Shown one piece after another: positions 33,571 through 50,070 of a stretch of DNA of 64,000 bases. Below the pieces are notes generated by a model that was not told where the DNA came from, made no database searches, and saw only the letters and a program-made list of their open reading frames with translations. Source of the stretch: Eledone cirrhosa (lineage: Eukaryota); assembly GCA_964016885.1 (NCBI GenBank), contig OZ024740.1, forward strand, positions 136,834,001-136,898,000, read 5' to 3'. Each line of letters opens with the position of its first letter. Position 1 is the stretch's first letter. Both the position numbers and the translations under genes were made by a program.

Positions 33571-33830
33571 CATGTGTATGCATTCACCTAATTTGATATT
33601 GAATCCTATCCATACATCACTAAACATCTATTATTAAAAGTCCTAGAATTTGTGAAACTGTATTGCACCATAACAGAAAACTTCATACAAATTATAATGA
33701 ATGCCAGGAAATTTATCCTACTATCTTACAAAAACTGATGAGAAAGCATAACACACACCACTTCAATGAAAGCATGCAAGCTCATGATCCTGCAGAAATT
33801 TCGAAACTAATTGGATTATATATTCTTAAC

Positions 33831-40489: not shown

Positions 40490-40572
40490 ACTTTCCTGAC
40501 GACGGAATGCTTCTCTATATTATTCTTCGGAAAATATATTTACTCCATTCCAGAAACTAATTAGTTGGAAGT
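40490..40572 (+). ncRNA. Type I hammerhead with an extended stem II
   Basis: actttc-CTGACGA-c-ggaatg-[insert with cTTCGg hairpin]-cattcc-a-GAAA-ctaattag-TT-ggaagt. Confidence 0.8.
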
Positions 40573-40682
40573 GATATTTTAGTAAGTAAGTTAATTTTAT
40601 AATTTTCTTATTTTACGTCTCTTATATATATATATATATATATGTATATGTATATATATATGTATATGTATATATATATATG

Positions 40683-46457: not shown

Positions 46458-46879
46458 GATTTCTGGAAGTTATCTATATTTCCCGACTAGAAAGTCCTCC
46501 CGAATAGACTCGATTTCTGGAAGTTATCTATATTTCCCGACTAGAAAGCCCTCCCGAATAGACTCGATTTCTGGAAGTTATCTATATTTCCCGACTAGAA
46601 AGTCCTCCCGAATAGACTCGATTTCTGGAAGTTATCTATATTTCCCGACTAGAAAGTCCTCCCGAATAGACTCGATTTCTGGAAGTTATCTATATTTCCC
46701 GACTAGAAAGTCCTCCCGAATAGACTTGATTTCTGGAAGTTATCTATATTTCCCGACTAGAAAGTCCTCCCGAATAGACTCGATTTCTGGAAGTTATCTA
46801 TATTTCCCGACTAGAAAGTCCTCCCGAATAGACTCGATTTCTGGAAGTTATCTATATTTCCCGACTAGAAAGTCCTCTC
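46458..46879. repeat. Homogeneous 54-bp tandem repeat, about 7.8 copies
   Basis: Unit GATTTCTGGAAGTTATCTATATTTCCCGACTAGAAAGTCCTCCCGAATAGACTC; about 2 substitutions among the full copies. Confidence 0.97.
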
Positions 46880-47029
46880 GATTTCGTCGACGCACAGAGA
46901 CACTCCAAGAGCGTCGTCGCAATTCCCACCACTAATCCTGTATTGAAGTCTAGCGTGGAATTTCCACTGACCGCATTGCCCGATTGGTAGAGGTCAGTGA
47001 GCGCCAGGCAACATTCCAATTGGTGGCCA

Positions 47030-48383: not shown

Positions 48384-48437
<54 letters not shown>

Positions 48438-48548
48438 AATTTATATCTAGTAACATTTATATACATACAGATGCACATCAATGCTAGCAAATATATAGGT
48501 TTTGTCTTAGTAACATTGTGGTTCAATGCATGGGGTTGCAGAACAATA

Positions 48549-48826
48549 ATATGAGAGACGTAAGATAAGAAAATTATAAAATTATAAAAAAATTATAAAA
48601 TTGACTTACTTACTAAAATATCACTTCCAACTAATTAGTTTCTGGAATGGAGTAAATATATTTTCCGAAGAACATATAGAAAAGCATTTCCTGACGACGG
48701 AATGCTTTTCTATATGTTCTTCGGAAAATATATTTACTCCATTCCAGAAACTAATTAGTTGGAAGTGATATTTTAGTAAGTCAATTTTATAATTTTTTTA
48801 TAATTTTATAATTTTCTTATCTTACG

Positions 48827-48836
<10 letters not shown>
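48549..48836. repeat. Near-perfect fold-back palindrome (about 140-bp arms) centred on a hammerhead core
   Basis: Apex ttcc-TGACGAC-ggaa; the arms differ by one 4-bp and one 1-bp indel; the right arm is the element seen at 40490-40622. Confidence 0.95.
48687..48764 (+). ncRNA. Type I hammerhead (paralogue of 40490-40572)
   Basis: tttc-CTGACGA-c-ggaatg...cattcc-a-GAAA-ctaattag-TT-ggaa. Confidence 0.75.
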
Positions 48837-48924
<88 letters not shown>

Positions 48925-49023
48925 GTTATTCCGGGTTGAATCGGAGGTAACCACAGTAAGTAAGGTACTCAATACATAGCAGAGTATAACAGTTTTAATA
49001 TAGATTTAATACAGTTTTAATAT

Positions 49024-49074
49024 AGATTCCTGATGATTTCTAATGAATGAAACAGTTCTAGTCCTGTAGAATCT
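49024..49074 (+). ncRNA. Type I hammerhead with intact core; predicted cleavage after GUA at 49068
   Basis: agattc-CTGATGA-t-ttc-taat-gaa-t-GAAA-cag-ttctagtc-ctg-TA-gaatct; 6-bp stem I, 3-bp stem II, 4-bp stem III. Confidence 0.9.
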
Positions 49075-49076
49075 CA

Positions 49077-49148
<72 letters not shown>

Positions 49149-49189
49149 CAATATTAATAAATGGAAAATATCTTTACAAAACCATATTT

Positions 49190-49248
49190 ATTTTATTATG
49201 CGTATTTCAAGGGTACTAATTTTTAAGTACGTTTTCGTCAGATAAAAT
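49190..49248 (-). ncRNA. Type I hammerhead with intact core
   Basis: Minus strand: attttat-CTGACGA-aaac-gtact-taaaaatt-agtac-cctt-GAAA-tacgca-TA-ataaaat; 7-bp stem I. Confidence 0.8.
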
Positions 49249-49271
49249 ATAATATTTGGTGTGAACTTATT

Positions 49272-49324
<53 letters not shown>

Positions 49325-50070
49325 ATGTGTGTGTGTGTGTGTGTGTGTGTTTGTATACAGTACATACAAAAATTCTAAGGTACTTTCCAGCCATAATTAG
49401 GAACCTTGCAGCTGAGTCTGTGATCTTTCTTCAGACAGAAGCATCTTTAATATGGTCGCCCCATATTATAACGATGGGCTAGCTAGAAGTGGTTTTGACG
49501 AGAAGCCACTATATAGGGGACATAACCTCACACCATTAAAGAACTATAAAGTAGAAGTTAACCTGGTTTCATCCTGCATTCAACACTTATCTGGACACCG
49601 ATATATTTAGGAAATGTTTATATGTAATCAGACAACATTTCCGACCCACTTAAAAGTATAAACTTTTCAATCTTGATAACATCAAAGTTACATTTTCCTT
49701 TCCGAATAACACACAACAACCGAATATTCACATCTAGACAGTCTCACTCCAGTACCCTACTTGTATCAGCAGAAGAACTTGTCTTCATAAGAGATATCTT
49801 AAATATTCTCCTGAGACTGTTTAAAAAACACTATACCGGACTTACTGCGAATACATTAAACATTCAATATTACCAGAATGTAAATTCACTCACGACAAAG
49901 TAAACTCCCCTTTCTTGTTCCAATTCGCCTGGCAGCTTATATATCATGGATCAAAACATATTCCATTAATATGGAACACCATCGATAAAGTAACATTAAC
50001 TGACGCAGAAGCTGCTAATTATGCTAATTATGCCTAGCTGAAAAGCTTCAGATATTAAAACAGCCAGCAA

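What the first reader, a model, noticed from the sequence alone, without database searches (positions are those of the whole stretch)
48923..49262. Best test candidates: two intact-core hammerheads pointing into the same (TA)n
49024-49074(+) has perfect stems and a GUA site and could fold as a monomer. 49190-49248(-) has a 7-bp stem I. The two are unrelated in sequence and flank the 49079-49144 tract. With the 48549 palindrome and an inverted tail at 48923-49000, at least three insertions have piled up within 700 bp.
Basis: partly seen in the sequence, partly recalled or inferred. Interest (0 to 1): 0.7.

Follow-up and report, generated by a model that had tools for sequence, protein, structure and literature searches.

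The report
Penelope retrotransposon stubs carrying hammerheads
The two hammerhead-ribozyme motifs are real, but they are the cut-short ends of two abundant Penelope-type jumping genes that landed in the same TA repeat; one is identical to the motif of intact copies and is predicted to cut itself only weakly, and the other is a damaged copy that is likely inactive.

Summary
Both motifs are genuine type I hammerheads (4 in the window, 0.1 expected by chance). They are 5'-truncated pLTR ends of two Penelope-like elements with Hydra-clade protein motifs, which insert in (TA)n. HHR1 is identical to the motif in front of intact 713-aa RT-endonuclease genes; its core 27-mer has 27,663 exact genomic matches. 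The 'inverted tail' is the same insertion's own inverted arm. Its stems are not perfect: stem II is 3 bp over a family-wide U.U. HHR2 carries two destabilising changes, one seen in no other copy, which breaks the family's stem III palindrome, so it is a poor test candidate. The third insertion (the palindrome) has the same build. The scan found such stubs before on other DNA. Two by-products matter more than the locus. Half of 90 family-A copies begin at the hammerhead's first base, 30 nt behind a TATA box, and almost none at the cut site, which suggests copying from uncut RNA. The same hammerhead also fills a roughly 377-kb array of 78-nt units on another chromosome. Cleavage and transcription are untested. 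New member of a known kind.

The parts
48386..48434 (.). (TA)n tract, left target remnant
48435..48832 (+). Insertion C: head-to-head stub of a third hammerhead-bearing family; inverted arm with long tail (about 48435-48688), sense arm to 48832. Parent ORF not identified.
   Evidence: 81-nt arms, 100%; 1,845 candidates
48687..48764 (+). Hammerhead C (long stem II, 12-nt palindromic stem III, GUU site); stem I cut to 4 bp by the inversion junction, 6 bp in the copy at 40490
48833..48923 (.). (TA)n tract between insertions C and A
48924..49005 (-). Inverted arm of insertion A: the element's 3' end with its optional long tail, 5'-truncated just behind the hammerhead
   Evidence: exact 82-nt match to intact copy L278; same layout
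49006..49023 (.). Junction of the two arms with an 18-nt local duplication (48989-49006 / 49011-49028)
   Evidence: variable junctions
49024..49074 (+). HHR1: type I hammerhead, stem I 6 bp, stem II 3 bp over U.U, stem III 4 bp with 8-nt loop holding a CUAG palindrome; predicted cut 49068/49069; sense arm ends at 49078 (short end)
49079..49145 (.). (TA)n tract between insertions A and B
49146..49270 (-). Insertion B: 5'-truncated pLTR end of a second family, short 3' end at 49146, with a deletion of about 24 nt upstream of the hammerhead
49189..49249 (-). HHR2: type I hammerhead, 8-bp A/U stem I, 2-bp stem III, AUA site (predicted cut between 49197 and 49196); destabilising changes at 49200 and 49232
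49274..49354 (.). (TA)n then (TG)n tract at the 5' end of insertion B

Best explanation
The region is one TA microsatellite split by three short repeats, two of which match the ends of reverse transcriptase-endonuclease elements elsewhere in the genome, so they are likely abortive insertions of Hydra-clade Penelope-like retrotransposons, with HHR1 predicted to cut weakly or as a dimer and HHR2 likely inactive. Shown: family A's intact unit is CCAAT/TATA box, hammerhead, short leader, 713-aa RT + GIY-YIG ORF, TA/TG-rich 3' region, second pLTR with hammerhead; family B's hammerhead lies about 1.1-1.3 kb behind a similar endonuclease. Inferred: the endonuclease nicks (TA)n, the RT starts at one of two internal sites just behind the hammerhead (short end and long tail) and copies to the RNA's 5' end, which in family A is predicted to be the first base of stem I; two such short cDNAs are joined head to head, often through the stem I complementarity, giving arm-with-tail plus arm-without-tail. 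The stubs have no promoter and the two motifs do not work together.
For: 16 of 16 fetched loci with the 758-codon open frame have hammerhead A in front (15 whole, 1 partial; identical to HHR1 over 55 nt in 10) and 15 of 16 a second one 4.7-6.3 kb downstream. 20 of 30 endonuclease loci have hammerhead B downstream in sense. Proteins show RW, DKT, CxCX5C, CxxC/CxH and no CCHH, the Hydra diagnostics of PMC8557442 section 11. 83 of 90 long 3' ends run into TA; 46 of 90 5' ends lie in a 21-nt window around the start of stem I, 38 of them with an inverted partner. Two-sided changes in stems: 25 cells vs 6.6 shuffled for A, 9 vs 2.0 for B. Tail at one end and inverted 5'-truncated arm are described PLE features.
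Against: No tree with published Hydra references was built; the likeness to Hydra-1_Obim is by eye from the supplement. Pfam gives only a sub-threshold RVT_1 match (E 0.014) for one fragment and nothing relevant for the others. Family A units are 4.7-6.3 kb, longer than the 'generally <3 kb' of Hydra. No intact family B ORF was seen (longest open frame 394 aa among the closest hits; only 150 of 55,956 candidates scored). The parent of insertion C was not found. The hammerhead fold of HHR1 has probability 0.03 alone and its stem I 0.01-0.02 in longer context. Transcription start and cleavage are not shown.
Confidence: 0.92

Rival explanations
1. The two facing hammerheads form one composite, functional unit (for example a ribozyme pair that excises or circularises the TA-containing RNA, or a retrozyme).
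For: They flank one tract; a similar A(+)/TA/B-like(-) layout exists at L002.
Against: Opposite strands, so no single transcript holds both; different stem III palindromes; B-like sequence lies within 600 nt of only 2 of 90 family-A copies; each family is tied to its own RT-EN gene; not a tandem repeat here.
Confidence: 0.03
2. The stubs were copied from hammerhead-cleaved or circular RNA, so the ribozyme sets their boundaries.
For: Model proposed in PMC4209133; a tandem array of 78-nt hammerhead units exists at G000:C28 and a 7-unit one at C1.
Against: Only 5 of 90 family-A 5' ends fall within 5 nt of the cut site and 72 of 90 extend to or beyond the start of the core; family B ends pile up 45-80 nt upstream of its core (15 of 30). 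A circle-derived copy would not show fixed ends, so the arrays remain compatible with this reading.
Confidence: 0.08
3. The 5'-end pile-up comes from stem I microhomology or RT stalling at the folded hammerhead, not from the transcript's 5' end.
For: 38 of the 46 piled-up ends have an inverted partner and many junctions use stem I letters.
Against: 8 of the 46 have no inverted partner; an RT would meet the 3' arm of the hammerhead first; in family B the pile-up lies upstream of the hammerhead, about 35 nt behind an AT-rich box; TATAAATA lies exactly 30 nt before stem I in family A.
Confidence: 0.25
4. Chance matches in AT-rich DNA.
For: No Rfam hit; folding z-scores near zero.
Against: 4 observed vs 0.1 expected; core and stems conserved while loop 2 varies; position fixed in pLTRs.
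Confidence: 0.01

Closest known systems
Hydra clade of C-terminal EN+ Penelope-like elements, e.g. Hydra-1_Obim, Hydra-2_Amil (Craig et al. 2021, PMC8557442; read passages, section 11 and supplement hits)
   Same: Single RT + C-terminal GIY-YIG ORF; RW, DKT, CxCX5C, CxxC/CxH, no CCHH; (TA)n target; type I hammerhead in the pLTR; inverted 5'-truncated arm and one-sided tail.
   Different: Units of 4.7-6.3 kb with a TA/TG-rich 3' region; very high copy number; hammerhead sequences differ from the two Hydra rows seen in File S2, and two short motifs of A and B were not found in the supplement.
[quoted passage not shown]
   Same: Type I topology, palindromic stem III/loop 3, mostly solo copies from truncated PLEs, pairs on opposite strands 100-700 bp apart already described.
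   Different: No G10.1-C11.1 pair (U.U in A, A-U in B) and no extra base after A9; HHR1 has a 4-bp stem III that could close as a monomer.
Poseidon PAc of Anolis (Frangieh et al. 2024, PMC11167929; read parts 1-2 of 4)
   Same: Two 3' ends (short, and long with tail) behind the hammerhead; copies made from uncut RNA.
   Different: Other clade; in PAc the ORF starts inside the hammerhead, here the start codon lies about 130 nt behind it; tail about 65 nt rather than 30-40.
Axolotl HHR_Amex2 and non-LTR retrozymes (PMC7229834, read passages and section 15; bioRxiv 10.64898/2026.07.22.740005, read parts 1-2 of 5)
   Same: U.U at the base of stem II, with 22% cleavage in 1 h as monomer and more as dimer; the C28 array fits the preprint's working definition (tandem units each with a hammerhead, PLE-derived).
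   Different: The window locus is not tandem. The C28 array has 78-nt units and about 4,800 of them, against a maximum of 300 units reported in the part of the preprint read.

Membership tests
Type I hammerhead ribozyme | Core boxes CUGANGA and GAAA with NUH cut site | tested here: met
   Both motifs
Type I hammerhead ribozyme | Three stems around the core, ends in stem I, with family-level support | tested here: met
   support comes from stem I (A) and stem II (B); hand-picked, related rows
Type I hammerhead ribozyme | G10.1-C11.1 pair at the base of stem II (typical, not obligatory) | tested here: not met
   U.U in 24 of 24 A rows; A-U in 24 of 25 B rows; U.U precedent in HHR_Amex2
Type I hammerhead ribozyme | Loop 1 / loop 2 tertiary contact | not tested
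   Loop 2 of A varies freely across variants, which argues against a fixed contact
Type I hammerhead ribozyme | Site-specific self-cleavage | not testable with these tools
   Needs a bench assay
EN+ Penelope-like element | pLTR-ORF-pLTR with RT and GIY-YIG-type endonuclease, hammerhead in the pLTR | tested here: met
   Family A; family B: broken ORFs only
EN+ Penelope-like element | Inverted 5'-truncated arm and tail at one end | tested here: met
Hydra clade | RWK-type motif and DKG changed to DKT | tested here: met
   A: RWR and DKT; B: seen only in a closely related inverted copy in L061
Hydra clade | CxCX5C linker, no CCHH, CxxC and CxH around the conserved E and N | tested here: met
Hydra clade | Insertion into (TA)n | tested here: met
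   83 of 90 long 3' ends
Hydra clade | Generally short (<3 kb) | tested here: not met
   4.7-6.3 kb between hammerheads in 15 loci; a tendency in the paper, not a diagnostic
Hydra clade | Phylogenetic placement with published Hydra RTs | not tested
   Only by-eye comparison with the supplement
Neptune clade (first guess) | CX2-5CxxC linker and CCHH motif | tested here: not met
Non-LTR retrozyme | Tandem non-coding units each with a hammerhead | tested here: not met
   Window locus has single motifs; met only by the separate arrays at C28 and C1
Non-LTR retrozyme | Expression as circular RNA | not testable with these tools
   No run on record as RNA was listed

The most novel reading that the evidence does not exclude
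In family A the hammerhead is the very first 51 nt of the transcript of a young, intact Hydra-clade element and acts as a switch: uncut RNA is the template, and priming at the 5' pLTR yields tens of thousands of 'strong-stop'-like stubs joined head to head through stem I, while cutting removes the cap and three upstream AUGs. The same segment has been reiterated into a 377-kb array of about 4,800 78-nt hammerhead units that still starts with an ordinary insertion arm, a Penelope stub caught turning into the largest retrozyme-like satellite I could find described, possibly yielding 78-nt RNA circles.
Probability: 0.3. Interest if true: 0.6.

Novelty: new member of a known kind. Interest (0 to 1): 0.27.

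Why it matters
The locus itself is ordinary for this genome. What the family offers is a test bed for an open question, what hammerheads do for Penelope-like elements: an intact, near-identical family (150 of 150 scored endonuclease matches at 96-100%), insertion ends that point to uncut RNA as template, and a natural tandem array in which the ribozyme could pair in cis. It also corrects the choice of bench substrate: HHR1 or a family-type B motif in monomer and dimer form, not the window's HHR2.

Tried and rejected
Rfam scans of the window and of the region gave no hammerhead, only microsatellite-driven miRNA matches. Free folding gave no support. Pfam did not name the ORFs. My first clade guess, Neptune, was dropped after reading the motifs. 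L185's intact 821-codon ORF beside an A copy belongs to another family and was not used as A's parent. The protein search returned 18 unnamed relatives at 29-38%. Sequencing runs: no RNA holder listed; contigs of two runs of unknown kind were used only as the lead to the tandem joint, not for expression or copy number. The in-cis dimer energy for two array units was not obtained (one search found no pair of identical perfect neighbours). Lunse et al. 2017 is not held and is known to me only through the review PMC6765202 (passages). PMC5786291 was a wrong id and is irrelevant. No structure or complex prediction was run. Literature searches found no paper on these families, on 5' ends piling up at a pLTR start site, or on such an array; subscription journals, Repbase and the bioRxiv preprint's supplements were not seen and may hold them.

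Full report
Observation. The sequence at 48923-49262 holds two type I hammerhead motifs on opposite strands around a (TA)33 tract. A strict descriptor finds four motifs in the 64-kb window (40490+, 48687+, 49024+, 49189-49249-) against 0.1 in shuffles. HHR1 has a 6-bp stem I, a 3-bp stem II over a U.U mismatch, a 4-bp stem III with an 8-nt loop, and a GUA site cut at 49068/49069. HHR2 has an all-A/U 8-bp stem I, an interrupted stem II and a 2-bp stem III. Rfam does not detect either, and neither folds better than shuffles.

Both are repeats. The window lies in a 3.0-Gb assembly; my calls do not name the host. A 27-mer of HHR1 has 27,663 exact matches (about 2,200 more on one strand, which the array below explains), and a 26-mer of its subfamily's 3' end 6,993. 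The HHR2 element gave 2,077 candidates and a 28-mer of its usual form 271 exact matches. The palindrome element gave 1,845 candidates.

Parents. Following family A upstream led through a CCAAT/TATA region and a TA/TG-rich stretch to an endonuclease. All 150 scored matches to it were 96-100% identical, and 16 had a 758-codon open frame. I fetched these 16: each has hammerhead A in front of the ORF (15 whole, 1 partial; identical to the window over 55 nt in 10), and 15 have a second copy 4.7-6.3 kb downstream. The ORF is 713 aa from its Met. For family B, broken RT and endonuclease frames lie upstream in L061, and 20 of 30 endonuclease loci carry hammerhead B downstream in sense; no intact B ORF was seen. 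The proteins have RW, DKT, a CxCX5C linker, CxxC and CxH near the C-terminus and no CCHH, the diagnostics of the Hydra clade in PMC8557442 section 11, whose supplement lists a (TA)n-targeting Hydra-1_Obim with a visibly similar N-terminus (by eye, no tree). The length exceeds the clade's usual <3 kb.

Anatomy of the locus. One TA microsatellite is split three times: TA, insertion C (about 48435-48832), TA, insertion A (48924-49078), TA, insertion B (49146-49270), TA/TG. The 'inverted tail' is an exact reverse complement of 82 nt of the intact A element: insertion A is an arm with the long tail joined head to head to an arm without it. Insertion C has the same build. This layout is described for PLEs (PMC8557442 passages; PMC3846280 passages), and the two ends match the two internal RT start sites shown for the Anolis element (PMC11167929). 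Facing orientation follows from 3' ends sitting in TA (83 of 90, 2 run on into the ORF, 5 unclassified). B-like sequence lies within 600 nt of 2 of 90 A copies and C of 1 of 90, so such neighbours recur without forming a unit.

Are they good test candidates? In family A the core and stems are conserved while loop 2 varies; two-sided changes number 25 cells against 6.6 shuffled, all in stem I, and U.U stands in 24 of 24 rows (24 rows hand-picked from 112 variants that were filtered for likeness, so this is supportive, not a probability). In B, 9 cells against 2.0, in stem II (21 of 46 variants plus 4 of a diverged subfamily). HHR1's hammerhead fold is 0.3 kcal/mol above the minimum but has probability 0.03, its stem I pairs fall to 0.01-0.02 in longer context, and its stem III region prefers a self-dimer (-12.8) to a hairpin (-1.4). 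The axolotl motif with the same U.U cut 22% in an hour as monomer and better as dimer (PMC7229834 section 15). So weak monomer and better dimer activity is the prediction. HHR2 differs from its family at 49200 (palindrome broken; 1 of 46 variants, a set partly chosen by the palindromic pattern; 0 of the 29 closest other copies) and 49232 (stem II pair lost; 5 of 46); fold energy +1.8 against -1.9, dimer -2.3 against -6.5. It is likely dead. A negative T7 assay would not refute function, since the Anolis motif needed its protein and minimal PLE motifs cut poorly in vitro (PMC4209133).

Where copies begin. For the first 90 of the 100 listed (of 6,993) places of a pattern lying wholly behind the cut site, all on the first 65 Mb of C1, 5' ends were: 22 more than 100 nt upstream, 4 at -99 to -62, 46 at -61 to -41, 13 at -40 to -13, 5 at -12 to -3, with the cut site at -7, stem I starting at -52 and a TATAAATA box at -82. 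38 of the 46 abut an inverted arm. Ends can shift by a few bases through microhomology. In family B, 15 of 30 ends lie 45-80 nt upstream of the core (one of them an artefact of reference choice), 9 further up, 1 at -36 and 5 inside the motif (the anchor spans the cut site, so cut-site ends could not be seen). The simplest reading is that RT runs to the 5' end of an uncut transcript that starts in the pLTR; this is inference, with no RNA data.

A by-product. A joint in contigs led to 1,662 genomic matches of a head-to-tail junction, nearly all listed ones in one array. It runs from C28:30,496,774 to 30,873,662 as judged from both ends and 8 of 8 internal probes with 20-26 hammerheads per 2 kb (about 50 kb read, so about 4,800 units is an estimate). 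Units are 77-81 nt, differ from HHR1 by one loop base plus scattered changes, 218 of 291 in the first 23 kb keep an intact core, and the array begins with TA plus an ordinary inverted arm with tail. A 7-unit array with the same junction lies at C1:350.2 Mb. Partial higher-order periodicity (lag 112 units) suggests later DNA-level amplification. The retrozyme preprint (parts 1-2 read) derives such arrays from pLTRs and reports units of 51-972 bp and at most 300 repeats.

Verdict. Real hammerheads, known kind of element, ordinary locus; earlier notes of this scan reached the same class for other stubs in this and other genomes, which I count as leads only. Interest 0.27, carried by the 5'-end pattern and the array rather than by the two motifs.

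Noticed in passing
G000:C28:30,496,774-30,873,662 (L366-L376, L386, L387): Array of about 377 kb of 77-81-nt units, each with family-A hammerhead; starts with TA and an ordinary inverted arm; about three quarters of the units read keep an intact core.
   Followed up: partly
L347:1370-1900 (G000:C1, 350.2 Mb): Seven-unit array with the same 78-nt unit and junction, not flanked by TA.
   Followed up: partly
window 62528-60028 (-): Decayed, nearly full-length RT-endonuclease ORF with DKT and CxCX5C motifs, 32-44% identical to the family-A protein in pieces; another Hydra-type family.
   Followed up: partly
window 40490-40622 (+): Second copy of hammerhead family C with its full 6-bp stem I and promoter-side flank; a better-formed motif than the one in the palindrome.
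   Followed up: partly
window 49416-49514 (+) and 33571-33827 (+): Short remnants similar to the RT of family A (E about 1e-5).
   Followed up: no
L278:1089-1270: The hammerhead of intact family-A copies holds three out-of-ORF AUGs with short frames, all starting upstream of the cut site; one more short frame lies in the leader behind it (read).
   Followed up: no
12 of 90 family-A neighbourhoods, e.g. L022, L051: A recurring GC-richer, hairpin-forming repeat of about 200 nt inserted in the same TA tracts.
   Followed up: no
L185:1729-4191 (+): Intact 821-codon Hydra-type ORF of a further family with an N/T-rich linker.
   Followed up: no
window 46458-46881: 54-nt tandem repeat, 7.9 copies, 98% matches.
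   Followed up: no
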